From: a virus
Reading direction: 5' to 3' (one strand)
IMG/VR virus record: IMGVR_UViG_3300046643_000057
Coordinates: 1-56,389 of that record
DNA: 56,389 nucleotides
The notes under the pieces were generated by a model that did no database searches, was not told the origin of the DNA, and saw nothing but the letters and a program-made list of their open reading frames with translations. The position numbers and the translations under genes are program-made. Positions 1,990 through 28,341 of the stretch are shown one piece after another (positions within the stretch are counted from its first letter, which is position 1; each line of letters starts with the position of its first letter).

Positions 1990-4343
1990 TACTGCGTGCG
2001 GTCAGACTGTGCTGCAGGTTGAGCAGAAGGCGCGAGCTTGGCAGGCGGCACGGCTGCCGCGGCCGGGTCGCCGGTGCTCGCCGGGTCCATCGTCTGGTCG
2101 GCGGGCAGCGTCTCGCCGGCATTGCTCTCCAAGGCCTGCACGTTCGGGATACCGCCCGGCGTGGCACCGCGGTTGATCGCGGTCTCGACAGCGAATTGCA
2201 CGATGTTGGAGATCGTCTGCGCGTTGATGGTCTGCTGTTCGCGCTGACCCTGCGCCTGCTCCTTGTTTTGCTCGATCTGCGCTTGGGACGCTGCTGCAGC
2301 CTGTGCGGCCTGCGCGGCCTGCTGACCTTGCTGCGCGATCTGGGTTTCGACTTCGTCCTCGCTCGGCACGCACTCGTCGACCGGGAGCTCCATCGCCGTT
2401 GCGACTTCGCGCACGATGTTGGCGATGTACTTCGGCCCGAGAATCTGCGTGATGACGGGCGAGGTCGTGACCATCTGCAGGAACTGCGTGCGCCGCTGCT
2501 GCGCCGATTCCTTGATGAGGATGGCTGCCGCGCCGCGCGGCACGACGATGCAATCCCCCTTGATCGACAGATCGGGGTTGTAGAGCATCTCGTTCGTGAA
2601 GGTGTCGCCGATGGTGGGCGAGATCACGTTCAGATCGATATTGGAAATCGCACGGCGCAGGCCCTTGGCCGCGTTGTTCATCAGCATCGAGAGACCGGTC
2701 GCGGTATCGGCCGAGCCGCCTGCGTTCTCGTTGCCGTAGGTGTAGCGTGGGATGCCGGTTGCGTCGTCGGCGCGAAGCTCCCACTTCTCATAGGTCGCCA
2801 TCAGGCTCGCGCTGTTGTCCTGCGCCTGCCAGAAACCCATGCCGGGGTTCACACCCTGCGTGGGGTCGGACTTCAGTTGCACGATTTTCCACGGGTAGAT
2901 TTCGAGCGTGTTCTCACCGTCCGCCATGCGGTCGGCATGCACCCAGACCATAGGGCCGGACGCCATCGACATGTTGTCGGCCAGCGCGCAGGCGATGCCG
3001 TTGCACATTTTCTGGCTGGTCGCGCACAGGTCAGGGATCGATCGGCCCCAGAAGGCGCCCGGAATCTCGTCGTAGCAGGCCTTGCGGTACGGCCGATGGT
3101 CGAGCGGATCGGGGTTCATCGCGGCGTAGAGGATGTAGCGCCCACAGACGAGCACATTCACTTCGTAGTCGCGGGTCGGTTCGATGTCCTCGCCTTTCTT
3201 GCCGTGCACACCCCACGAAAGGAGCTTCCACCCCGGCACCGACCCCCAATAGTTCAACGCGTCGATAACGCCCGGAGGCGAGAGCCACATATAGAGCGTC
3301 TCTTGCTCGAGTCGTTGGCGTTCGGCCTCGGTCCAGAGCCACCCCTCGAGGTGCCCATTCGAGTAATCCATCAGCGCCTTGTCGATCTCGTTGTCCTTGT
3401 AATCGGGCAGCCCTTTGAGATCGTGCAATTCTTCACGACGGAAGCGGATTCGTTCGATGAAGTCGCCTTGCTGGCATGTCCGGGCCGACGGCGCCGGGTA
3501 GGCGTCGAAGGGTGAGACGCGCTCATAGGACTGCGCCGGGTTGTTCGAGACTTCAGGCTTCCAGCCAGAGCCCCACGAAAGCGTCTTGTGGCGTTTGTAG
3601 ATCGGGCCCTTCAGGATCGCGGCCGGATAGGTGACGAAGTCTTCGACGAAGCCATCCATCGCGGGCTCGTAGTCGCCCTCAACGAGGCGATCGGCGATCT
3701 GCGCTTCCATGCGCTTGGCGCGCTGCGCCGCGGTCTTGCGCAGTTGCGTCTCGGTCTGGTCGCGCAGCTTGTCGCCGATCTGCGCGGCGAGGCCTCGGAA
3801 CTCGTCTTTCGAGAGCGTGCCGCCGCCTGCCTGCTGAATCTGCTGCATGGTCGCAGTTGCCTGCTGCAGCGCCTTGCCGACCACTGACTTCATGAGCTCC
3901 TTGGGCATGTCGGGCATTGGTGTGGGCTCGATCCCCCACGGTTGTTCGCCCACGGGCAGCACGATCTCGCGAATCCACGCGGAGGCTGCCCGGCACTTGG
4001 TCTCGGTGAGATCGGCCCACACGATGTTCATGCCGCCCTGATTGGCCTGCATCGCGGCGATGGCGCTCGGCGAGTAGAGCCCCCGACGTGCACGCAGGCA
4101 GTCGAGTAGCTTCAAGTCGATTTTCATCTTCGCCAGCTTGTTGCGGCCCCACGCGGCGCGGCAGTGGCTCGCGAGCGCCGAGAGGCTGCCCGTGTCGTCG
4201 ATGCTCTGTGCTTCGGGTGGTTTCTCCGCGTCACGCTGCAGTAGCTGCTGCAGGCCGAGCGCACGAACGAGAGGGTGACTCGTCGGCGCGGGGCCTTGGT
4301 TGCTGCTCGGGGATGTCGGAGAGGCGAGGCTTTGTGCGGGCAT
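1986..4343 (-). CDS. portal protein
   Basis: 785-aa ORF directly downstream of the large terminase block and upstream of scaffold and capsid. The call rests on size and position. It has a Q/A-rich C-terminal tail. Confidence 0.8.
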   Translation of the reverse strand: MPAQSLASPTSPSSNQGPAPTSHPLVRALGLQQLLQRDAEKPPEAQSIDDTGSLSALASHCRAAWGRNKLAKMKIDLKLLDCLRARRGLYSPSAIAAMQANQGGMNIVWADLTETKCRAASAWIREIVLPVGEQPWGIEPTPMPDMPKELMKSVVGKALQQATATMQQIQQAGGGTLSKDEFRGLAAQIGDKLRDQTETQLRKTAAQRAKRMEAQIADRLVEGDYEPAMDGFVEDFVTYPAAILKGPIYKRHKTLSWGSGWKPEVSNNPAQSYERVSPFDAYPAPSARTCQQGDFIERIRFRREELHDLKGLPDYKDNEIDKALMDYSNGHLEGWLWTEAERQRLEQETLYMWLSPPGVIDALNYWGSVPGWKLLSWGVHGKKGEDIEPTRDYEVNVLVCGRYILYAAMNPDPLDHRPYRKACYDEIPGAFWGRSIPDLCATSQKMCNGIACALADNMSMASGPMVWVHADRMADGENTLEIYPWKIVQLKSDPTQGVNPGMGFWQAQDNSASLMATYEKWELRADDATGIPRYTYGNENAGGSADTATGLSMLMNNAAKGLRRAISNIDLNVISPTIGDTFTNEMLYNPDLSIKGDCIVVPRGAAAILIKESAQQRRTQFLQMVTTSPVITQILGPKYIANIVREVATAMELPVDECVPSEDEVETQIAQQGQQAAQAAQAAAASQAQIEQNKEQAQGQREQQTINAQTISNIVQFAVETAINRGATPGGIPNVQALESNAGETLPADQTMDPASTGDPAAAAVPPAKLAPSAQPAAQSDRTQY

Positions 4344-7897: not shown

Positions 7898-7915
7898 CTG
7901 TATCAAGTGATACAG
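7898..7915. promoter_or_regulatory. palindromic operator-like site O1 (CTGTATCAAGTGATACAG, perfect)
   Basis: 8-bp inverted arms with a 2-bp spacer, 44 bp upstream of the ATG at 7959. One of six related sites. Confidence 0.6.
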
Positions 7916-7958: not shown

Positions 7959-8933
7959 ATGTCACACGAACTCACCACCCGCGCAAACGGCCTCACCGAA
8001 ATGGCCTATGTCGGCGAAACGCCTTGGCACGGTCTCGGCCAAGAGCTCACCGAAGGCGCATCGATCGACGATTGGAAAACCGCTGCTGGCATGGATTGGA
8101 AAGTGCAGCGCTCCAAAGTCCGCTACTTCGCCGATGCGGCCGGCGCGCAGCAGTTCGAAATGGAGGACCGCCATGTCCTCTTGCGCAGCGACGACAAGAA
8201 GGCTCTCGGCATCGTGAGCCCTGAATTCAAGATCGTACAGCCCGGCGCCGTGCTCGAATTCTTCCGCGACCTGACCGAAGACGCAGGCATGCATTTGCAC
8301 ACTGCCGGCACGCTCTTTGGTGGTCGCAAGTTTTGGGCACTCGCCAAGGTCGCAGAAGCCACCATCCAAGGCGCCGACAAGGTCGGGGGCTACCTGCTCC
8401 TCGCCACAGCCTGCGACGGCAGCATGGCAACCGAGATTCGCGAGACGAGCATTCGGGTTGTCTGCAATAACACGCTGTCTATGGCTCGCAGCGTCGGTGC
8501 CAAGCGCGACGTGATCCGTATCACCCATCGCGAGAAGTTCAACGCCGAGTCCGTGAAGACTCGCATGCTCGACGCTGGCTCTTCGTTCGCGTCGCACATC
8601 GCACTCGCTCAGGAACTGAGCCGCAAGCGCGTCACAAACGCGATGGCTGAAGAGTTTGTCCGCAAGCTGCTTCGCCCTGACGAGGTGCTCATCGAAGGCG
8701 AAGAGGTTCGCGCACCGAAGGGTGAGGCTGATATTTTGCGTCTCTTCAAAGGTGAAGCGATCGGCTACGGGATGAGTGGTAGCGGCTCGGCGTGGACCTT
8801 GGTGAATGCCGTCACTCAATGGGTGGATCACGTCAAGGGTGGAAAGTCCGAGAGCCATCGTCTTGACTCCGCATTCTTCGGATCGGGCGACGATCTCAAA
8901 AATCGTGCCTTCGATCTCGCCTTCACGATCTGA
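7959..8933 (+). CDS. DUF932-like phage/plasmid protein
   Basis: 324 aa. Segments ...WHGLGQEL..., ...ALGIVSPEFKIVQPGAVLEFF..., ...GGRKFWALAKV... and TACDGSMATEIRETSIRVVCNNTLSMA match my memory of the DUF932 / TIGR03299 family. Confidence 0.7.
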   Translation: MSHELTTRANGLTEMAYVGETPWHGLGQELTEGASIDDWKTAAGMDWKVQRSKVRYFADAAGAQQFEMEDRHVLLRSDDKKALGIVSPEFKIVQPGAVLEFFRDLTEDAGMHLHTAGTLFGGRKFWALAKVAEATIQGADKVGGYLLLATACDGSMATEIRETSIRVVCNNTLSMARSVGAKRDVIRITHREKFNAESVKTRMLDAGSSFASHIALAQELSRKRVTNAMAEEFVRKLLRPDEVLIEGEEVRAPKGEADILRLFKGEAIGYGMSGSGSAWTLVNAVTQWVDHVKGGKSESHRLDSAFFGSGDDLKNRAFDLAFTI

Positions 8934-10407: not shown

Positions 10408-13155
10408 CTATTCGGGCAAAAGGCGTAGTCCGTGCACCAAACGCAATTTTTTACGACGGCCTTCACCAAGCGAGGCCTGCGACTCCCGAACCTCGCTCCC
10501 CGGCACCACTCGCAACACTTCATCCATAAAACGAGATTTGGAAATAGCGAAAACCCCGGCGTCCTTGCACCACCTCACGTACTCCGGATAGAGGCCTGCA
10601 TTCGACCCGAGCGACGCGTCCGTGAGAGCTTCGCGGAAGTCATATCCGATTTCGCAGCACTCCCCGACGAACTGCCCCACGCGGTCCTGCTCGCGCTTGT
10701 AGGCGTCGCCTGCAGCACGCACCACGGCCGGCGCCTGCAGCCCTGTCTGCGCCCATTCGATCGCACCCCGCACGCGCCACGCGAGAATCCCCTCTAGCTC
10801 GCTCTGCAGCCTCGCGCCCACACTCATGTCCTTCACCTTGTCCGCAAGACCCGCAGCGACCGCCTCCGTGCTTCCGAAGGTCACGCCATAGGGCACGAGC
10901 AGCACGCGGCGCCAGATGCCGTGATCCTGACCCTTGATCTGCGGCTTGTGGTTCGTGAGCAGTTGCAGCTTGTGCACGGGGCGGAACTCGAAAAAGTCCT
11001 CGCGCATGTGACGCGCCATGAGCTTGTCGCCGCCCGTCGCCTGTTTGATGAAGTCCTCGCGCAGCACGACGTTTTCGCCATGCTCGTGTGCTGTCACCAT
11101 GCGGCGGCCGAAGAGCGAAGCTATCTCGGTAGGGTGCCGGTCGCTCTTCGACGCAGCCATGAGCCCGGGAGCGGCCGTGGTGCCGTATTCGCCCTGCGTG
11201 TCCGCGAGTAGATCGATGATCGTGCTCTTGCCGTTCGATCCGCCACCCCAATGCACCGCGAAGCACTGCTCGCGCGTGTCCCCGGTGAGGCAGTAGCCCG
11301 CCCATCGCTGCAGGAACGCGGCGACTTCGCGCTTCCCCGCGTCCAACCCATCCTCGCCGGTGATCTCGGCCACGACACGCGACCACGTCGGCGCCTGCGC
11401 ATCGGCCTTGTACCGCAGCGGCACGATCTTGGTGATGTAGTCGGCGGGGTCGTGGCGTCGGACCTTGCCTGTCCGCAGGTCGACAACACCGTTCAGGCAA
11501 TTGAGCGCCCACGGGTCGCGATCCAGACTCTCGGCGTCGACGGTGAGCATCTTGCGAGCCAGACCGATCGCAGCCTCGATCGCGCCCTTCATTTCGCTTT
11601 TGAGCGCCCACTTACCGAGCGCCTCCGCGATCGCGCCGAGCTTGGTCGCCTCGGCCTGATCGCCGCGCGCCTCCGCATCTGCGGCCCTGGCTTCGTGAGT
11701 CTTCTTCTCGCCGCGGATGATCTCGGACAAGCGGCACCCGTAGCGGTAGACGTCGGCCTCGTCGGCGACCCACCGCTTGCCGTCCCAGACGTGCCACTTG
11801 CCGGCCGCCACGAGCACGAGCGCGCCGAAACTATCCTTCAGACGCTGCGCGTTCGCTTGGTCCGTCGTGAGGTAGTGCGCCTCCGGAATGCCGCGCCGCT
11901 TGACCGCTGGCAGCTTCACGTCCGGGGGTGGTGGCAGATGCGAGACAAGGGCCATCGATCCGCCGAGCGTGGCGTCGATCGCGGCCGGTGAGGTGAGATC
12001 CGATAAGGGGCTATTACCGGGCGTCATGCTTGCATCGCGAGGTGTGTAAACAGTGCCGATCAATGCCCCGCCGTCGAAGGTTTGTTCGACCCCTACATTA
12101 CCCTCGGGCGCGCCCGGGTCGACGCCGACCCACACCACGGCCGGCACGGGCGGCGCGTTGTCCTCCGCGCTGCAGTCTTCGAAACCATCGGGGATCGGCT
12201 CGTGCCATCCGTACCCCGCGGCCAATCGCTTCAACGATCCGATGCCCTTGACGTTCTCCCGGTCCGACCTGATGAAGGGCCACACGCGGTTATCGAGGAA
12301 ATCGGCATCGTATTTGCCGCTCTTCGCGCTGAAGGCGTGCGCGATCTCGAGACCATCGCCTCCGGTCTCGTGATGGATGATGAAGACGACATCACGCCAC
12401 TGGTCGTAGCCGAGCTCGTCCTTGCCTGTGTTCGGGATCGCGGCCAAGATCGATCGAAGCTCTTCGTGCCCCACGATCTCGCCGAGCCCCTTCGCGACCC
12501 GCACAGGCCTCGCCAAGCGCGGCACGGGCTCGGACAGAGGCCACGCCATGCCGAGCACGTCCTCGCGCGTCCCTGGCACCCAGTCGTCGAGCAGGGGTTC
12601 GAAGACGATCGGGACGGACAAACCCGCGAGAGGCAACACGGCCTGATTGCCGTAGCCACCCTCCGGCACTTCGTTCTGTTTGGGGAATACCTCGATCTCG
12701 CCGGCTGCGACACCGCGCGTGCCGGACTTATAACCACACGATCTAACGGCCGTGTCGAGCCACTGCCTAACGGAATAAGCGTCTTGGGGCGTCTCCCAGA
12801 GGCAATAGACGTGCAGGCCACGGCCACCACTTGAGCGGAACATCACCGGCGCACCACCGAGTAGCTCGATCGATTGCGCGACGGCGGTTGCGGCCGAGAG
12901 CATTGCGGACCATGTCGTTTCGCCTCCGTGCGAGTCGAAGTCGAGCAAACCCACCATCGTCAACGAAGAGCCCGCGGCGATCTGTGAGACGCCACGGGCG
13001 GGGCCCCCGTTCAAGTGCCGCGCGAATCGCTCGGGCGTAAGTGGTTCTTTGGTCCATGCCTGCGTCCCGTCCTGTTTCTTGATGGCTGTCACGTCCGTGC
13101 GGACGCGCGAGATCAGCGGCGCGAGAGCCGCATAGAGCGGATCGTTCGGGTTCAT
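10408..13155 (-). CDS. bifunctional primase-polymerase / D5-like SF3 helicase
   Basis: AEP motifs LLDFDSHGG and GGRGLHVY in the N-terminal third. Walker A HWGGGSNGKST and Walker B-like segment in the C-terminal third. 915 aa. Confidence 0.9.
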   Translation of the reverse strand: MNPNDPLYAALAPLISRVRTDVTAIKKQDGTQAWTKEPLTPERFARHLNGGPARGVSQIAAGSSLTMVGLLDFDSHGGETTWSAMLSAATAVAQSIELLGGAPVMFRSSGGRGLHVYCLWETPQDAYSVRQWLDTAVRSCGYKSGTRGVAAGEIEVFPKQNEVPEGGYGNQAVLPLAGLSVPIVFEPLLDDWVPGTREDVLGMAWPLSEPVPRLARPVRVAKGLGEIVGHEELRSILAAIPNTGKDELGYDQWRDVVFIIHHETGGDGLEIAHAFSAKSGKYDADFLDNRVWPFIRSDRENVKGIGSLKRLAAGYGWHEPIPDGFEDCSAEDNAPPVPAVVWVGVDPGAPEGNVGVEQTFDGGALIGTVYTPRDASMTPGNSPLSDLTSPAAIDATLGGSMALVSHLPPPPDVKLPAVKRRGIPEAHYLTTDQANAQRLKDSFGALVLVAAGKWHVWDGKRWVADEADVYRYGCRLSEIIRGEKKTHEARAADAEARGDQAEATKLGAIAEALGKWALKSEMKGAIEAAIGLARKMLTVDAESLDRDPWALNCLNGVVDLRTGKVRRHDPADYITKIVPLRYKADAQAPTWSRVVAEITGEDGLDAGKREVAAFLQRWAGYCLTGDTREQCFAVHWGGGSNGKSTIIDLLADTQGEYGTTAAPGLMAASKSDRHPTEIASLFGRRMVTAHEHGENVVLREDFIKQATGGDKLMARHMREDFFEFRPVHKLQLLTNHKPQIKGQDHGIWRRVLLVPYGVTFGSTEAVAAGLADKVKDMSVGARLQSELEGILAWRVRGAIEWAQTGLQAPAVVRAAGDAYKREQDRVGQFVGECCEIGYDFREALTDASLGSNAGLYPEYVRWCKDAGVFAISKSRFMDEVLRVVPGSEVRESQASLGEGRRKKLRLVHGLRLLPE

Positions 13156-13482: not shown

Positions 13483-13528
13483 GATGGTTTCAGATTGGCG
13501 GACGGTGAGCATACATCCGCGGGAACAC

Positions 13529-13546
13529 TTGCAGCAAGTGATACAA
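13529..13546. promoter_or_regulatory. operator-like site O6 (degenerate; minus strand reads TTGTATCACTTGCTGCAA)
   Basis: One good half-site and one 5/7 half-site. Lies between the minus-strand terminator and the primase-operon leader. A possible TTGCTG-18-TATGCT promoter overlaps it. Confidence 0.4.
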
Positions 13547-13547
13547 A

Positions 13548-13578
13548 CGAAAAAGCCCACCGTGTTTCCACAGTGGGC
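13548..13578 (-). terminator. rho-independent terminator (minus strand)
   Basis: Minus strand reads gcccactgtg-gaaa-cacggtgggc followed by TTTTTCG. Confidence 0.6.
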
Positions 13579-14416: not shown

Positions 14417-15453
14417 GACTGCTCTCCCGAAGACTTGAGAACAGCGCCCCCAAACCATTCCGAAAGCGCGAATGACGTGATCGACCTGACTTCTTCGTCT
14501 GTCGCCGCTCGCGGCTCTGCGCTGACCCATTCGTCCCCGGTTGCCCAAAACACACGCGCCGATTCGTCGTCGGTCGGTGTCTTGCGCATGAGGGTGACAG
14601 TGCCGTCCAGCGCGTCGGTTTCGTGAATCTCCGAAGGCTCTTGGCTATACGATTGACCTGCCTCGTAGAGGTCGGGAGCGAGCGCGATCAGCGACGCATC
14701 GACTGGCTCGTGTTTGAAGAAACAGCCGTAGCCGGGCTTCAACGTGGCGAACTTGTACGGCTCGCCGCGCACGTCTTCGATATAGCGGTGATTGCGGAGG
14801 CGTCCTGCGACGATGGTGGACTCAAGGCCCCATTGCAAGTGATCGTGAATCATGCTGACGTTCGGAACGCGGTAGCGAGAGTCCCAAACATGCAGGCGCG
14901 TGTTGTCGCTCAAATGAAGTCGCAGCATCCCCATGCCTTGCAGAGACCACTCGAAGGCCGTCGCGTTCTCAAGAATCGCGCGAACCAAGATGCGGCTCAA
15001 TTCTGGCCTTGAAGGGGCAGTCTCCGCAGCGGGTTGCCTCTCAGGGCTGGATGGTTCGATGGGTTCGGCGCGCCAATCGAACGCCGCCCATTCTTCTGCC
15101 AGTGCATCCGGCATGTAGCCTTTGCGGTCGGCCCGATCAAGCGCATCCATCAGGTCACCGAAGTTCTTCACCAGAACAACTGAGAATCCTTCAGGGATTG
15201 GTGCCACCGGCTCTCCAGTGATCGCCCGATCCACGCGGCCAGCCAGCATCCTCGCCAGCTCCTCTGGTGAGAGCGGCTCAAGAATCCCGTAGCTGCTCTC
15301 GCATTCCTTGTTGATGTCGAGTGCCCCCTCACTCAATGCAGTCGCAGCCTCACGCATGACGCGCTGGGCGTCGCCGCTCTTGCTTTTGAGCAGGCCGCAG
15401 TCGTCCATGATCAAGGCAAGCTCCATCAGCCTCTTGGACAGTTGTGTCGTCAT
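14413..15453 (-). CDS. hypothetical protein with C-terminal cupin-like metal-binding motifs
   Basis: 346 aa. ATG at 15453 overlaps the regulator stop. IHDHLQWGLESTIVAG resembles cupin motif 1 (HxH...E...G), and a later ...PSEIHETD supplies a possible second His. Confidence 0.6.
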   Translation of the reverse strand: MTTQLSKRLMELALIMDDCGLLKSKSGDAQRVMREAATALSEGALDINKECESSYGILEPLSPEELARMLAGRVDRAITGEPVAPIPEGFSVVLVKNFGDLMDALDRADRKGYMPDALAEEWAAFDWRAEPIEPSSPERQPAAETAPSRPELSRILVRAILENATAFEWSLQGMGMLRLHLSDNTRLHVWDSRYRVPNVSMIHDHLQWGLESTIVAGRLRNHRYIEDVRGEPYKFATLKPGYGCFFKHEPVDASLIALAPDLYEAGQSYSQEPSEIHETDALDGTVTLMRKTPTDDESARVFWATGDEWVSAEPRAATDEEVRSITSFALSEWFGGAVLKSSGEQS

Positions 15454-15740
15454 GTGAGCTTCGCTTTCATGGCGAACCGAGCGTATTCGCAACTCTGGCA
15501 GGTCGCGCTCAGGTCGGTGCGGTTAATGATCGGGATGATCTGCATCCGGCTCGCGGCTTTCTCGACCCTGATCGCGAGATCGGGGCTGATGTTGCGCCGG
15601 CCTTCCGCATACTGGCGCAATGACGCCTCGGTCGACTTGGCGAGCTTGGCGAAGCGCAGGCGTTGTTTCGGCTCAAGACCGCGCCAGAGCGCCATGAGCT
15701 TCGGGTTCGGTCGCAGCGGTCGGGGTGGTTTCTTTTGCAT
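15450..15740 (-). CDS. small HTH DNA-binding regulator (XRE/Cro-like)
   Basis: Translation MQKKPPRPLRPNPKLMALWRGLEPKQRLRFAKLAKSTEASLRQYAEGRRNISPDLAIRVEKAA. Sits at a divergent promoter region that carries two operator-like palindromes. Confidence 0.65.
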   Translation of the reverse strand: MQKKPPRPLRPNPKLMALWRGLEPKQRLRFAKLAKSTEASLRQYAEGRRNISPDLAIRVEKAASRMQIIPIINRTDLSATCQSCEYARFAMKAKLT

Positions 15741-15748
15741 GCGACGGA

Positions 15749-15766
15749 CTGTATCACTTGACGCAA
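15749..15766. promoter_or_regulatory. operator-like site O2 (CTGTATCACTTGACGCAA)
   Basis: Lies 9 bp upstream of the regulator ATG (minus strand). Overlaps a plus-strand TTGACG -35 hexamer at 15758-15763. Confidence 0.5.
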
Positions 15767-15793
15767 GGCATGCGCAACCATTACGATTCATCC

Positions 15794-15868
15794 GCGCCGG
15801 TGCTCTCACCTCCCTTACTCCCTGATCCGGCGCCTTCCGACCCGTGGTTTTGCGACCACGGGTTTTTC
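15794..15868 (+). ncRNA. candidate small RNA or leader-attenuator (about 75 nt)
   Basis: Putative promoter TTGACG(15758)-18 nt-TACGAT(15782). Hairpin gcgccgg/ccggcgc has a loop tgctctCACCTCCCttaCTCCCtgat (anti-SD-like). A terminator hairpin follows at 15841-15868. Confidence 0.3.
15841..15868 (+). terminator. rho-independent terminator-like hairpin inside the divergent region
   Basis: cccgtggt-tttgcg-accacggg followed by TTTTTCTTT. There is no plus-strand CDS upstream. Confidence 0.55.
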
Positions 15869-15880
15869 TTTCGAAAAGTG

Positions 15881-15909
15881 TTGACAAGCTCGTATCAAGT
15901 GATACACAC
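15881..15909 (+). promoter_or_regulatory. sigma70-like promoter with operator-like site O3 (TCGTATCAAGTGATACAC at 15890-15907)
   Basis: Consensus TTGACA at 15881-15886. The palindrome occupies the spacer and -10 region. Lies 36 bp upstream of the ATG at 15945. Confidence 0.55.
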
Positions 15910-15944
15910 TGACCGCTCACCTTTTCAACCAAACGGAATTCATC

Positions 15945-16277
15945 ATGTCCAAGCAAACCATCAAGCTCGCCGAGGCGCTGTTGCGCCGCAAGGAACTCCA
16001 AGGCAAGGTCGACGTCCTGAAGCAGATCAAGGACAAGGACATGTTCGAAGTCAAGGCAAGCCGCAAGAAGGTCACCGAAGACTTGGACGATGTCGTCGCG
16101 GCTGTGCCCAAGCTCACGGCCTCGCAGTTCACGGCCGAATACGATTGGCACGCCAAGCAGTTGCGCCTGATCGATGCGGCCATCCAGCAAACGAACTGGA
16201 CGGCCGAGATCACGATCGATCACGATGTGATGGCCGAGTACAGCGACCGCACGGCGGCGCCGAAGACCCCGGCCTGA
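15945..16277 (+). CDS. DIP1984/septicolysin-like family protein (short version)
   Basis: The N-terminal KLAEALLRRKELQGKVDVL and C-terminal KQLRLIDAAIQQTNWTAEI match the conserved ends of that family as I remember them. Confidence 0.6.
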   Translation: MSKQTIKLAEALLRRKELQGKVDVLKQIKDKDMFEVKASRKKVTEDLDDVVAAVPKLTASQFTAEYDWHAKQLRLIDAAIQQTNWTAEITIDHDVMAEYSDRTAAPKTPA

Positions 16278-16598
16278 CGACCTTCACGCGGGTTTGAAAA
16301 GCTGCATGCTGCGATCGGGGAAAGGCTCGCTTCCGTGCCTCTAAACGGTAAGGTGTTGCGCGACACCGCTAGCAAACTTGATCTGTATCGATTAACGGCG
16401 TGATTCGGGATTCACATTAAACGCCCGGGGAACTTCGACTAAGAGAAACGTGAACAGCGAAGCTCCGATTGACCGATTACGATCACACGAGAACCTCCGA
16501 CTGAGAGACGCGCCGACTAACCACCCCCGAGGGCGTGCAGCCCTTCAAACCCGCGAGAAGACCCTTTGAAATCCACCACGAAGAAAGCGATACACGTT

Positions 16599-17012
16599 AT
16601 GCCCAAGATCACAATCTCCGTCGAATACGACAACACCGAAGACGCGATCCTCGGTCTCTCGGCCCTCCGTGGCGGCGACAACGTCGCGAAGCCCGTCACG
16701 AAGGAAACCACCAAGCCGGGAAAGTCTGTCGAGAAGACGGACAGCCCTGCGGCTACCAAGCCCGATGCGGCGAAACCGGGCGGTGCGCCCGAGGGCGGTA
16801 CTTCGACGGCCGCATCGTCCGGTGAAGGCGGCATCAGCTATGACACGGTGACGGCCAAGATCAAGGCCGCCGTCGAGACGCATCGCCCGCAGGTCATCGA
16901 GACCCTGACGGCCTTCGAAGCGAAGAGCGGCAAGGACCTGAAGCCGAAGGACTACGCTGCGTTCCTGCAGAAGCTCGAACAGGCCACCGCGCCCGCTGAA
17001 GACCTGGGCTAA
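16599..17012 (+). CDS. hypothetical protein with low-complexity centre
   Basis: ATG at 16599 within ORF 16566..17012. A terminator follows. Confidence 0.55.
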   Translation: MPKITISVEYDNTEDAILGLSALRGGDNVAKPVTKETTKPGKSVEKTDSPAATKPDAAKPGGAPEGGTSTAASSGEGGISYDTVTAKIKAAVETHRPQVIETLTAFEAKSGKDLKPKDYAAFLQKLEQATAPAEDLG

Positions 17013-17020
17013 GAGAAGCG

Positions 17021-17043
17021 CAACCCTCGCGAGAGGGTTGTTT
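17021..17043 (+). terminator. rho-independent terminator
   Basis: caaccctc-gcga-gagggttg followed by TTTG. Confidence 0.6.
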
Positions 17044-17138
17044 GAAGAGTGACCGGGAAGCACAGGCGTGCTGTCTCGCTGACACGGGGCAAGGTGGGGG
17101 TGTCAGCTCCCATTGAGCCCGGCCACTCTTCAAACAAC
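17037..17138 (+). promoter_or_regulatory. multi-stem structured element in the 5-prime region of gene 17159
   Basis: Long-range 18-nt arms at 17037-17054 and 17121-17138 (17/18 complementary) enclose hairpins at 17059-17072 and 17078-17107. The left arm shares bases with the terminator stem and T-tract. Confidence 0.5.
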
Positions 17139-17158
17139 ACGAACGGAAAGGAACAGGA

Positions 17159-17545
17159 ATGGCGATCACCAAGCGCATTGAGAGCTACATCACGTTTTTC
17201 TTTGCTGGCAGTTTCACGGCCGACACGTCAAAACGACTCGTGCTCTCCCTCGATCCGGCCGCGATCGAATGGCCTGAGAGCGCCTACGCGGCACGCTTCA
17301 GCCAGCGCGACACGATCGACCACGAAGGTGTTGTCTTCGTCGGCAAAGAAAAGGACGTGAGCAAGCTGCTCTACCGCGCCGGCAGCCGCGTCGACTCCCT
17401 GCAAGAGATCAAGGACCGCGAAGACCCGCACGATGGAATCCTGATCTCGAACATGGAAATCAATGGGTGGCCCGCAATGATCTACACGCACTTCGGCAAC
17501 TGGCCTCAACCATTCGACGCCGAGAAGATGGAGATTCTCAAGTGA
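17159..17545 (+). CDS. hypothetical protein (128 aa)
   Basis: GGAAAGGAACAGGA SD region precedes the ATG. High GC3. Confidence 0.65.
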   Translation: MAITKRIESYITFFFAGSFTADTSKRLVLSLDPAAIEWPESAYAARFSQRDTIDHEGVVFVGKEKDVSKLLYRAGSRVDSLQEIKDREDPHDGILISNMEINGWPAMIYTHFGNWPQPFDAEKMEILK

Positions 17546-24467: not shown

Positions 24468-24493
24468 CTCTGTATCACTTGATACGTTAGGAT
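24464..24493 (+). promoter_or_regulatory. sigma70-like promoter with operator-like site O4 (CTGTATCACTTGATACGT at 24470-24487)
   Basis: TTGACT at 24464-24469, an 18-nt spacer filled by the palindrome, and TAGGAT at 24488-24493. The ATG at 24500 follows. Confidence 0.6.
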
Positions 24494-24499
24494 GACGAC

Positions 24500-25171
24500 A
24501 TGCTGATCGACACATGCTCATGGGATCACCCCGGCGCCGATGCCTACACAGGTTCGGCGACTGCCGCGATCTACGCGATGGCGCCCGACATTCCGGTCCG
24601 CGTCAAGCGCGTGTTCGCCGAGAGGGCCGAGCGTCACGAGGTCGACGACGTGGTCTACATCGACCGCGATTCGATCCGCGGCAAGTACGCCTACGAGCCC
24701 GAGATCAGTTTCATGGCGTTCGGCAGCAAGGGCCGAATCTGCGCCAACGTCACCCGCAACAAGTGGAGCCCCGACCATGTCGAATCGGCGATCGTCATCT
24801 GCGAGCAAGGGTGGTGCGTGGCCCGGCCCTCTGTTTGCAACAACTGGTCCCTCGTCACTCGACACGAGCCTGCCGGCCCTGCGGCCCCTCCGGTCGCTCT
24901 TCTCGCACCTCCTGAAGCCTTCGGCCCTCCTGCGTCCGAAGTCGGAGCACCCGGGCCTACCCCCTTGCTTCTGCGCGACGTGCCGCTCGAGGCGCAGCCG
25001 GGAGAAGGTGACGGACCATCCGCGCCTCTCGTGCGCGGACCTGTGTTTCTGTCCGGTCTGCCTGTTCTTGTCGAGCCCGTGACGCCGGTCCCTGAGCCCA
25101 CGGTGCTCTGGCTGATGATCGTGGGTCTCGTCGCAATCGCATGGAAAGTGGGCAAGCGCTATGACCGATGA
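24500..25171 (+). CDS. PEP-CTERM sorting-domain protein (MHFG-family-like)
   Basis: The C-terminus VPEPTVLWLMIVGLVAIAWKVGKRYDR has a PEP motif, a TM helix and a basic cluster. The N-terminal domain CSWDHPGADAYTG...ISFMAFGSKGRICANVTRNKW...CEQGWCVARPSVCNN resembles the MHFG family as I recall it. Confidence 0.75.
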   Translation: MLIDTCSWDHPGADAYTGSATAAIYAMAPDIPVRVKRVFAERAERHEVDDVVYIDRDSIRGKYAYEPEISFMAFGSKGRICANVTRNKWSPDHVESAIVICEQGWCVARPSVCNNWSLVTRHEPAGPAAPPVALLAPPEAFGPPASEVGAPGPTPLLLRDVPLEAQPGEGDGPSAPLVRGPVFLSGLPVLVEPVTPVPEPTVLWLMIVGLVAIAWKVGKRYDR

Positions 25172-28124: not shown

Positions 28125-28341
28125 ATTTCACCTTTGGTCGAAAGACAACCTCGTGAAGTTTGCCGAGGAGGCGACCGTCGTGCTCATCCAGAAAGACGCG
28201 CGGATCGTGCAACTCGAAAAAGACCTAAAAGTTGTAAAAGAGGCTTGGCGTCAAGCGGTATCAAGTGATACAGTTCACGAATGGACAGCATCACCCCCAC
28301 ACAGTACGCAGCCGGTTTCCTCGCCTTCGCGTTCATCGTGA
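28117..28341 (+). CDS. hypothetical coiled-coil protein (74 aa)
   Basis: ATG at 28117 overlaps the helicase stop. The C-terminal part runs across operator O5 and the next gene start, so the true end is uncertain. Confidence 0.45.
   Translation: MAEFHLWSKDNLVKFAEEATVVLIQKDARIVQLEKDLKVVKEAWRQAVSSDTVHEWTASPPHSTQPVSSPSRSS
28256..28273. promoter_or_regulatory. operator-like site O5 (CGGTATCAAGTGATACAG)
   Basis: Ends 7 bp upstream of the ATG at 28281, the first gene of the GT/MTase module. A possible TTGGCG-18-TACAGT promoter overlaps it. Confidence 0.5.

What the first reader, a model, noticed from the sequence alone, without database searches (positions are those of the whole stretch)
15741..15944. 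Divergent switch region with a candidate small RNA bearing an anti-SD loop
The 204 bp between the minus-strand HTH gene and the plus-strand gene at 15945 contain several elements. Operator O2 overlaps a plus-strand TTGACG-18-TACGAT promoter. A hairpin (15794-15833) has a loop that reads CACCTCCC..CTCCC, complementary to GGGAGG-type Shine-Dalgarno sequences. A clean rho-independent terminator lies at 15841-15868. A second consensus TTGACA promoter carries O3. No plus-strand CDS lies upstream of the terminator. The simplest readings are a roughly 75-nt regulatory RNA, or a leader-attenuator feeding into the second promoter's gene.
Basis: partly seen in the sequence, partly recalled or inferred. 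Interest (0 to 1): 0.65.

Follow-up and report, generated by a model that had tools for sequence, protein, structure and literature searches.

The report
Conserved phage small RNA with anti-SD loop
Between two divergent early operons of an uncultured, lytic-looking phage sits a conserved, self-contained gene for a roughly 75-79-nt RNA whose open pyrimidine-rich loop always carries CCUCCC, the complement of ribosome-binding sites. It is most likely a phage regulatory RNA of a known type but a new family, with no target identified.

Summary
P1 (TTGACG-18-TACGAT) fires 7 nt upstream of a 7-bp stem with a 26-nt loop. A strong intrinsic terminator follows, then a second promoter, P2.

Three other metagenomic phages (L003/L004, L005, L205/L206) carry the same unit. 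The promoter spacing, the stem starting at +1 and a compensatory stem change (C-G, U-A, U-G) are kept. Their terminators differ at 5 of 9 pairs but all still pair. Loops are 73-81% pyrimidine and always contain CCUCCC. No ORF is conserved, so a discrete small-RNA gene is well supported.

Its function is inferred. The RNA resembles CU-rich-loop sRNAs that mask Shine-Dalgarno sites, but it scores below threshold for every Rfam family. I found no conserved target within the phage.

The "switch" label needs correcting. The YdaS/Cro-like HTH protein has six operators across the genome, several driving apparently leaderless mRNAs. No integrase or partition gene turned up. This looks like an early-gene regulon, not a lysis-lysogeny switch.

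Verdict: a new sRNA family of a known kind, moderately interesting, with expression and target untested.

The parts
15450..15740 (-). Gene for a 96-aa YdaS/Cro-like HTH regulator, first gene of the leftward early operon
   Evidence: ORF. Five homologues of 92-93 aa. AlphaFold model with pLDDT 80; best fold matches are YdaS 8c7k (TM 0.66) and the lambda cI N-terminal domain. The recognition helix co-varies with the operator in L205.
15748..15777 (-). Inferred promoter P_L of the HTH gene: -35 TTGCGC (15777-15772), 18-nt spacer, extended -10 TGaTACAGT (15756-15748), then 7 nt to the ATG. This implies a leaderless mRNA.
   Evidence: Read from the sequence. The same layout is present in L003 (TTGCAA-16-TACAGT-N6-ATG), L005 (TTGCAC-18-TACAGT-N6-ATG) and L205 (TTGCAG-17-TACATT-N7-ATG). 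No SD lies upstream. Inference; not detected by the strict scan.
15751..15764 (.). Left operator O_L, GTATCACTTGACGC: an imperfect copy (2 mismatches) of the palindrome GTATCA-NN-TGATAC. It overlaps the -10 of P_L and the -35 of P1.
15758..15787 (+). Promoter P1 of the small RNA: TTGACG, 18 nt, TACGAT
   Evidence: Conserved in L003 (TTGACA-16-TACGAT), L005 (TTGACG-18-TACAGT) and L205 (TTGCTC-18-TAGGAT). In all four, exactly 6 nt separate the -10 from the first G of the stem.
15794..15872 (+). Predicted small RNA, about 75-79 nt. The 5' end is inferred at G15794; the 3' end is inferred within the U-tract 15865-15872.
   Evidence: Fold of -33 kcal/mol, z = -6.0. Covariance model R1 scores 98 bits here and 76-85 bits in the homologues, with nothing else in 127 kb of related loci.
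15794..15833 (+). 5' stem-loop: a 7-bp GC stem (15794-15800 / 15827-15833) closing a 26-nt loop that is 81% pyrimidine. The loop holds CACCUCCC (15807-15814) and CUCCC (15818-15822).
   Evidence: The fourth pair is C-G, U-A, U-G and U-A in the four variants. CCUCCC is present in all four loops.
15839..15872 (+). Intrinsic terminator: an 11-bp stem (15839-15849 / 15854-15864), loop UUGC, tail UUUUUCUUUC. The T-run plus GAAAAG also sits where an UP element for P2 would be.
   Evidence: Five of 9 registered stem pairs vary among the four variants and all stay paired. The UP-element role is inference from position.
15881..15910 (+). Promoter P2 of the rightward early operon: TTGACA (15881-15886) and a -10 of TACACA/CACACT within 15903-15910. 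The perfect operator GTATCAAGTGATAC (15892-15905) lies between them.
15945..16277 (+). First gene after P2, a 110-aa DUF6847 protein. It is absent from this position in L003, L005 and L205, where the MPKITIS gene (window 16599-17012) comes first.
13508..13578 (-). A second unit of the same design inside the leftward operon. It has a terminator (13578-13555 plus T-run) and an operator half-site fused to the -35 (TGTATCAC-TTGCTG, 13537-13532), then an 18-nt spacer and TATGCT (13513-13508). It lies ahead of the 80-aa gene and the primase.
   Evidence: The same layout occurs in L205 with that phage's own operator sequence.
7900..7913 (.). Perfect operator copy upstream of the DUF932 gene at 7959
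24472..24485 (.). Perfect operator copy inside a promoter: TTGACT-18-TAGGAT-N6-ATG (gene 24500; leaderless inferred)
28258..28271 (.). Perfect operator copy inside a promoter: TTGGCG-18-TGaTACAGT-N6-ATG (gene 28281; leaderless inferred)

Best explanation
Window 15794-15872 (+) is a self-contained gene for a non-coding RNA of about 75-79 nt, belonging to a small clade of uncultured podovirus-like phages.

Host sigma-70 RNA polymerase starts at P1, whose -35 is fused to the left operator. The transcript begins directly with a 7-bp GC stem, presents a 26-nt unstructured pyrimidine-rich loop, and ends at a strong intrinsic terminator just before P2.

P1 interdigitates with the divergent promoter of the leaderless HTH mRNA, and both are covered by the same imperfect operator. 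The RNA would therefore be made early, or whenever regulator levels are low to intermediate. It would be shut off by the YdaS/Cro-like regulator, probably later than the promoters that carry perfect operators.

The most likely action is in trans. The exposed CCUCCC-containing loop would pair with GGGAGG/GGAGG-type Shine-Dalgarno regions and block 30S binding, as CU-rich-loop sRNAs of Betaproteobacteria and C-rich-loop sRNAs of Staphylococcus do. Since no convincing phage target exists, the targets are more probably host mRNAs.

Shown: the sequence elements, the fold, and the conservation and covariation. Inferred: the transcription start and stop, regulation by the HTH protein, SD pairing and the identity of targets.

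Sub-confidences: about 0.75 that a discrete sRNA gene exists, and about 0.4 that it acts by SD masking in trans.
For: - Promoter, hairpin and terminator are at the stated positions.
- Four distinct variants each fold alone into the same two-hairpin shape, with z from -4.3 to -6.5.
- Stem pair 4 changes C-G to U-A or U-G. The U-G in L005 pairs only on the plus-strand RNA.
- Terminator stems differ at 5 of 9 pairs but remain paired.
- The spacing from -10 to stem (6 nt) is invariant, so the RNA starts with a protective 5' stem.
- Loops diverge by roughly 40-50% yet stay 73-81% pyrimidine, 26-27 nt long, and always contain CCUCCC.
- No ORF is conserved: L005 and L205 hit stops after 7-8 codons (read from the sequences).
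- A P1-type promoter (operator half-site fused to the -35) also heads the primase operon, so this promoter design is used for real genes.
- In the more distant L198, the same slot, behind a P1-like promoter, holds a 32-aa ORF with its own SD. The slot is therefore a genuine transcription unit.
- Sub-threshold Rfam hits are all to CU-rich-loop, SD-targeting sRNA families: anti-hemB at 24-26 bits, RF02278 at 23 bits, ar14 at 22 bits and mmgR at 13 bits.
- For those families, CU-rich unpaired stretches are reported to cover ribosome-binding sites (PMC5688073). For SprX, a C-rich loop pairs with an RBS (PMC4005690).
Against: - There are no expression data of any kind.
- Only four independent sequences are available, so covariation rests on few events.
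- RNAduplex scans found no phage site that stands out. Start regions of phage genes average -9.6 kcal/mol against a background of -10.2.
- The one good hit in L205 (-24.9) is not reproduced at the orthologous site in the window (-14.1).
- The host is unknown, so host targets cannot be tested.
- More distant relatives (L199, L200, L203, L204, L009) manage without the element, so it is accessory.
- The terminator's T-run could be retained simply as an UP element or insulator for P2.
Confidence: 0.5

Rival explanations
1. Cis-acting leader or attenuator. P1 transcripts are meant to read into the rightward operon. The hairpin plus terminator would be a regulated stop that a phage or host factor overrides, in the way the lambda PR'-tR' 6S transcript is extended by Q.
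For: P1, the terminator and the rightward genes are co-linear. The phage reuses a terminator-then-promoter layout at 13508-13578. The conserved sequence around the 3' half of the stem, CUGAUCCGRCGCCUUC, could be a protein or RNA-polymerase contact.
Against: A full operator-controlled consensus promoter (P2) sits 9 nt past the U-tract, so the operon does not need P1. The terminator is strong: an 11-bp stem and a good U-tract. No alternative anti-terminator pairing is predicted, since the loop is too pyrimidine-rich to pair with anything nearby. No Q- or N-like protein was recognised among the ORFs screened.
Confidence: 0.15
2. Promoter competition and insulation. P1 exists mainly to compete with the interdigitated HTH promoter P_L for RNA polymerase. 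The terminator merely stops this transcription before it occludes P2, and its T-run doubles as P2's UP element. The RNA itself would be a by-product.
For: The P1 and P_L core elements interleave within 30 bp, with starts about 54 bp apart, so only one can be occupied at a time. T-rich tracts upstream of P2 persist even in relatives that lack the hairpins.
Against: A by-product would not need a conserved 7-bp stem placed exactly at +1 with a compensatory change. Nor would it need a loop kept at 26-27 nt, pyrimidine-rich, with an invariant CCUCCC across about 40-50% sequence divergence.
Confidence: 0.15
3. Protein-binding decoy RNA. The open pyrimidine-rich loop would bind a protein rather than an mRNA. 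Candidates are ribosomal protein S1, Hfq or a phage RNA-binding protein.
For: The loop's composition and length are better conserved than its exact sequence. No base-pairing target was found in the phage. From general knowledge, not tested here: S1 prefers pyrimidine-rich single strands and is dispensable for leaderless mRNAs, which this phage appears to use.
Against: The one invariant loop motif is precisely the anti-SD core CCUCCC, and all weak Rfam similarities are to base-pairing sRNAs. There is no direct evidence for any protein partner.
Confidence: 0.1
4. DNA-level element. The 7-bp inverted repeat spaced by 26 bp, together with the polypurine/polypyrimidine tract, would be a protein-binding site or part of a replication origin, not an RNA.
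For: It lies in the central control region of the replication genes. A symmetric change in both half-sites (C to T with G to A) would also fit a dimeric DNA-binding protein.
Against: L005 carries T on one arm and G on the other. That breaks DNA symmetry but keeps a U-G RNA pair on the plus strand. The element is framed exactly by a promoter and a terminator on the same strand, and the minus-strand transcript does not fold better than shuffles (z = -0.8).
Confidence: 0.05

Closest known systems
Betaproteobacterial CU-rich 'double-hairpin' sRNAs (Rfam RF02278 toxic small RNA: ncS03/05/27 of Burkholderia cenocepacia; NmsR of Neisseria) and anti-hemB (RF02837)
   Same: Short RNAs of about 60-105 nt built from a first hairpin plus a terminator hairpin. 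[quoted passage not shown] The closest primase relatives of this phage infect Burkholderia and Xylella.
   Different: Not homologous by covariance model: 23-26 bits against gathering scores of about 50. Encoded by a phage, under a phage operator. No copies were found in 185,579 representative genomes with a strict pattern.
SprX (RsaOR) of Staphylococcus aureus
   Same: A C-rich loop of the sRNA pairs with the ribosome-binding site of a target mRNA and blocks ribosome loading (PMC4005690).
   Different: Unrelated sequence, Gram-positive host, longer RNA with several loops, and not placed in an early regulatory region.
Phage P1/P7 c4 RNA and P22 sar RNA (from my own knowledge, not tested here)
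   Same: Phage-encoded small RNAs in immunity or regulatory regions that prevent translation by covering a ribosome-binding region. sar, like this RNA, has its own promoter and terminator and is about 69 nt.
   Different: c4 is processed from a longer transcript and targets sites in its own operon. sar is a cis-antisense RNA. Here no complementary phage site exceeds background, and no leftward promoter that would make an antisense partner was found.
Lambda PR'-tR' 6S transcript, and StxS of Stx phages (from my own knowledge)
   Same: A short promoter-proximal transcript ended by an intrinsic terminator directly upstream of an operon. In StxS the terminated product acts as a regulatory sRNA.
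   Different: Those derive from a late promoter and are extended by Q antitermination. Here a separate operator-controlled promoter (P2) follows the terminator, and no Q-like gene was recognised.
Lambda cI / PRM-PR and restriction-modification C-protein circuits (context of the unit)
   Same: An XRE/Cro-type HTH regulator, palindromic operators overlapping divergent promoters, and a leaderless mRNA for the regulator. The HTH model matches YdaS, the lambda cI N-terminal domain and C.AhdI.
   Different: Six operators are spread over the genome. No lysogeny genes were found. A small-RNA gene is inserted between the divergent promoters.

Membership tests
Rfam RF02837 anti-hemB (Burkholderia RNA 7) | Covariance-model score at or above the gathering score (49.5 bits) | tested here: not met
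   24.3 bits in the window and 26.2 bits in L005. The first helix of the model is not formed in the alignment.
Rfam RF02278 Betaproteobacteria toxic small RNA (double-hairpin sRNAs) | Covariance-model score at or above the gathering score (50 bits) | tested here: not met
   No hit in the window at E <= 10. 23.2 bits, E = 0.14, in L003.
Trans-acting SD-masking sRNA (functional class) | Own promoter and Rho-independent terminator delimiting a short non-coding transcript | tested here: met
   In silico only: P1 and the terminator, conserved in four variants, with no conserved ORF.
Trans-acting SD-masking sRNA (functional class) | Conserved unpaired C/U-rich motif complementary to SD sequences | tested here: met
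   CCUCCC is present in the open loop of all four variants. Loops are 73-81% pyrimidine.
Trans-acting SD-masking sRNA (functional class) | Identified mRNA target whose ribosome-binding site pairs with the motif | tested here: inconclusive
   No phage start region stands out. The host genome is unknown.
Trans-acting SD-masking sRNA (functional class) | The RNA is expressed and stable in vivo | not testable with these tools
   No transcript data are available.
Cis-antisense phage RNAs (P22 sar, lambda OOP type) | A convergent transcript overlapping the sRNA gene | tested here: not met
   No minus-strand promoter-like site lies to the right of the element. The conserved HTH promoter lies to its left and gives a leaderless mRNA. 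All genes to the right are on the plus strand.
P1 c4 / P4 CI type immunity RNAs | Complementary target repeats within the phage's own operon | tested here: not met
   The whole-window duplex scan returns only the RNA's own antisense as an outlier. Phage start regions do not differ from background.
Lambda-type lysis-lysogeny switch | A maintenance repressor together with lysogeny functions (integrase or partition, and an S24-type or equivalent repressor) | tested here: not met
   Pfam and PHROGs scans of 46 ORFs found replication, packaging, virion and lysis genes only. Not every small ORF was screened.
XRE/Cro-type HTH regulators (the adjacent gene) | Helix-turn-helix fold, with operators that match the specificity of the recognition helix | tested here: met
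   Fold matches to YdaS, lambda cI N-terminal domain and C.AhdI. L205 changes QYA to LNV in helix 3, and its operators change GTATCA to GTAGCA. DNA binding itself was not tested.

The most novel reading that the evidence does not exclude
The RNA is a mimic of the 3' tail of 16S rRNA. The window and L205 loops read UCACCUCC(C)UU, the same 8 nt as the rRNA anti-SD region. An apparently virulent phage would make it in a burst at the start of infection to coat strong host Shine-Dalgarno sites. That would shift ribosomes toward its own leaderless and weak-SD early mRNAs, giving an RNA-based, sequence-generic form of translational host takeover.
Probability: 0.08. Interest if true: 0.85.

Novelty: new variant of a known kind. 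Interest (0 to 1): 0.5.

Why it matters
Few small RNAs are known from phages that look strictly lytic, and almost none are placed inside the master early control region under the phage's own regulator.

If the RNA masks ribosome-binding sites, it would be an early, self-limiting tool for reprogramming host or phage translation. It sits in a phage whose key regulators appear to be translated from leaderless mRNAs. That pairing makes a testable link between sRNA action and leaderless translation.

Practically, the unit is compact (about 200 bp) and modular: an operator-controlled promoter, a 5' stem, an exchangeable loop and a terminator. It comes with natural variants that carry a second operator specificity.

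Tried and rejected
- Known RNA family. An Rfam gathering-threshold scan of the whole window returned nothing. Permissive scans gave only sub-threshold hits.
- Relatives in phage GenBank records. There was no DNA match for the region or for 14 kb around it.
- IMG/VR. Protein-seeded and pattern scans gave only chance matches. The two DUF6847 loci, L001 and L002, have unrelated upstream regions.
- GTDB genomes. The HTH profile found no relative. A strict stem-loop pattern returned 14 hits, all lacking a CU-rich loop and a terminator.
- Small peptide gene. Rejected, because the only frame is broken in L005 and L205 and has no SD.
- Cis-antisense to the HTH mRNA. Rejected, because the conserved HTH promoter lies between the sRNA and the ATG.
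- Minus-strand RNA with GGA motifs (CsrA-sponge idea). Rejected: there is no terminator on that strand, the fold is not better than shuffles (z = -0.8), and the L005 U-G would become a C-A mismatch.
- Specific phage target. The L205 site upstream of the 82-aa/primase genes looked promising (-24.9 kcal/mol) but is not conserved in the window (-14.1) and is not unique within L205.
- SD census of phage genes. Left inconclusive because gene starts were not curated.
- Covariance-model alignment. It mis-registers the L003 and L205 terminators, so pair counts were made by hand registration instead.

Full report
**Observation**

- P1 (TTGACG 15758-15763, 18 nt, TACGAT 15782-15787) is the only strict sigma-70-like site in 14500-17500; shuffles average 0.6.
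- The hairpin is GCGCCGG 15794-15800 paired with CCGGCGC 15827-15833. It closes the 26-nt loop UGCUCUCACCUCCCUUACUCCCUGAU.
- The terminator stem is 15839-15849 / 15854-15864, followed by UUUUUCUUUC.
- TTGACA lies at 15881-15886 and the perfect palindrome GTATCAAGTGATAC at 15892-15905.
- The 79-nt RNA folds at -33 kcal/mol with z = -6.0.
- The complementary strand does not fold better than shuffles (z = -0.8).

**What the window is**

The window is a 56-kb, roughly 62% G+C, podovirus-like phage genome. It appears to be the whole contig. Its genes fall into three blocks:
- Packaging, virion and lysis genes lie on the minus strand.
- A leftward early operon runs from the HTH gene to a D5/AEP primase-helicase (10408-13155).
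- A rightward early/middle operon encodes a DUF2800 exonuclease, an ssDNA-binding protein, a DNA polymerase A and a helicase.

No integrase, partition or S24-repressor gene was recognised among 46 ORFs screened. The nearest primases are from Burkholderia phage BcepC6B (37%) and Xylella phage Xfas53 (46%). There is no DNA match in GenBank phage records and no tRNA.

**The regulator and its sites**

The 96-aa protein belongs to a very small family, with five homologues in 5.8 billion proteins.
- Its AlphaFold model (pLDDT 80) matches YdaS/Cro, the lambda cI N-terminal domain and C-proteins.
- The 11-mer TGTATCACTTG occurs six times in the window against 0.16 expected.
- Four of those sites are perfect 14-bp palindromes (7900, 15892, 24472, 28258). 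Two are imperfect copies fused to a -35 hexamer (13531, 15751).
- In the related phage L205/L206 the operators read GTAGCA..TGCTAC, and the recognition helix changes from SLRQYAEGRR to SLRLNVEGRR. This links the protein to the sites.

Three of the promoters place an extended -10 or -10 element 6-7 nt before an ATG with no SD: the HTH gene at 15740, the gene at 24500 and the gene at 28281. This arrangement is kept for the HTH gene in L003, L005 and L205. I infer leaderless mRNAs.

The HTH promoter P_L (-10 at 15748-15753, -35 at 15772-15777, minus strand) interleaves with P1. The two must compete for polymerase, and one operator covers both. So the region is the hub of a six-promoter early regulon, not a demonstrated lysis-lysogeny switch.

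**Comparative test of the small RNA**

Contigs carrying the HTH homologues, and homologues of the first conserved rightward gene, gave three further distinct versions of the intergenic region: L003 (=L004), L005 and L205 (=L206). The following features are kept in all four:
- P1 is retained, with spacers of 16-18 nt.
- Exactly 6 nt separate the -10 hexamer from the first G of the stem, so the RNA starts with its stem.
- The seven-pair stem is kept. Its fourth pair is C-G, U-A, U-G and U-A.
- The loop is 26-27 nt, 73-81% pyrimidine, and always contains CCUCCC, despite extensive substitution elsewhere.
- The linker CUUC is conserved.
- The terminator stems differ at five of nine registered pairs yet remain paired.
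- A U-tract follows.

Each variant folds alone into the same shape, with z from -4.3 to -6.5. The U-G pair in L005 would be a C-A mismatch on the other strand, which points to a plus-strand RNA.

The only reading frame through the element is closed after 7-8 codons in L005 and L205.

A covariance model built from the four sequences finds only these copies in 127 kb of window and related loci.

Searches elsewhere gave only chance matches:
- IMG/VR.
- JGI metagenomes, seeded with the HTH protein. The eight loci found carry a different intergenic architecture.
- 185,579 GTDB genomes.

**Evolutionary context**

More distant relatives (L199, L200, L203, L204, L009) have a roughly 100-bp gap holding only two palindromic operators and a T-rich tract. 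L198 carries, behind a P1-like promoter fused to the operator, a 32-aa hydrophobic ORF with a good SD in the same slot.

The slot is therefore an accessory transcription unit that different phages fill differently. The window clade fills it with a non-coding RNA.

The design 'terminator, T-run, operator-controlled promoter' recurs ahead of the primase genes (13508-13578), in both the window and L205.

**Function**

Every weak Rfam similarity is to sRNAs with CU-rich anti-SD loops: anti-hemB, the betaproteobacterial toxic/double-hairpin sRNA, ar14 and mmgR. All score far below their thresholds.

For the Burkholderia double-hairpin sRNAs, CU-rich unpaired stretches are reported as reverse complements of ribosome-binding sites. 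Over-expression of one of them slows growth (PMC5688073). For SprX, a C-rich loop blocks an RBS (PMC4005690).

By architecture and motif, the phage RNA works like these, without belonging to any of the families.

I could not find a target. The whole-window duplex scan returns only the RNA's own antisense as an outlier. Phage start regions are no better than background. A promising site in L205 is not conserved. Either the targets are host mRNAs, with the host unknown, or the RNA acts through short generic SD contacts or a protein.

**Rivals**

- Leader or attenuator feeding P2's operon: 0.15.
- Competing promoter whose RNA is a by-product, with the terminator serving as insulator and UP element: 0.15.
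- Protein decoy: 0.1.
- DNA-level element: 0.05.

The precise +1 stem, the compensated stem change and the maintained loop composition argue against the by-product and DNA readings. The strong terminator followed at once by a full promoter argues against the leader reading.

**Verdict**

A discrete sRNA gene is well supported comparatively (about 0.75). SD masking in trans is the best mechanistic guess (about 0.4). The 'switch' label should be replaced by 'hub of an early regulon with leaderless mRNAs'. This is a new RNA family of a known functional kind. Interest is moderate, and would be higher if the rRNA-tail-mimic reading held.

Noticed in passing
window 7900-7913, 13531-13544, 15751-15764, 15892-15905, 24472-24485, 28258-28271: The HTH operator occurs six times: the 11-mer TGTATCACTTG, against 0.16 expected. 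Four copies are perfect palindromes and two are imperfect copies fused to -35 hexamers. Each sits in a promoter-like context, so the small HTH protein looks like a genome-wide early/middle regulator.
   Followed up: partly
window 15740 (-), 24500 (+), 28281 (+): Three genes start 6-7 nt after a -10 element (TACAGT, TAGGAT, TACAGT) with no Shine-Dalgarno sequence. This implies leaderless mRNAs. The layout for the HTH gene is conserved in L003, L005 and L205.
   Followed up: partly
window 16278-16600; L001 about 2340-2400; L002 about 3480-3640: A 320-nt non-coding stretch follows the DUF6847 gene and is closed by a 28-bp long-range inverted repeat (16282-16309 / 16533-16560). Its core carries repeated CCGAYTRA-like motifs and is conserved downstream of the DUF6847 homologues in two unrelated viral contigs. 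There is no Rfam hit. In L002 a tRNA-Ile lies inside it. It could be iterons or an origin, or an undescribed RNA.
   Followed up: partly
window 15945-16277: The DUF6847 gene, with the non-coding stretch after it, is an insertion relative to L003, L005 and L205. In those, the MPKITIS gene (window 16599-17012) directly follows P2. The junction falls within the first codons (MSKQTIK versus MPKITIS).
   Followed up: partly
L198 about 1019 upstream (reverse-complement view): In a relative whose HTH is 52% identical, the slot between the two operators holds a 32-aa hydrophobic ORF (MRDWHDWNWPGLIAVAFLVLFWGTLARACIFS) with the SD AAGGAGAG and a T-run at its end, where the window has the sRNA.
   Followed up: no
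L205 2366-2584 and 1270-1300; L206 likewise: A sister phage uses a different operator (GTAGCA..TGCTAC) and has a changed recognition helix (QYA to LNV), while keeping the same sRNA architecture. This is a natural specificity swap.
   Followed up: partly
window 13508-13578 (-): There is an intrinsic terminator inside the leftward operon, followed at once by an operator-fused promoter ahead of the 80-aa gene and the primase. That gene has the strong SD GAGGUGAU. L205 has the same layout.
   Followed up: partly
L205 3535-5224: The DUF2800 exonuclease is called as two pieces (205 and 276 aa) with an 82-aa ORF between them, whereas the window has one 464-aa gene. This may be an inserted mobile element or an assembly or frameshift issue.
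   Followed up: no
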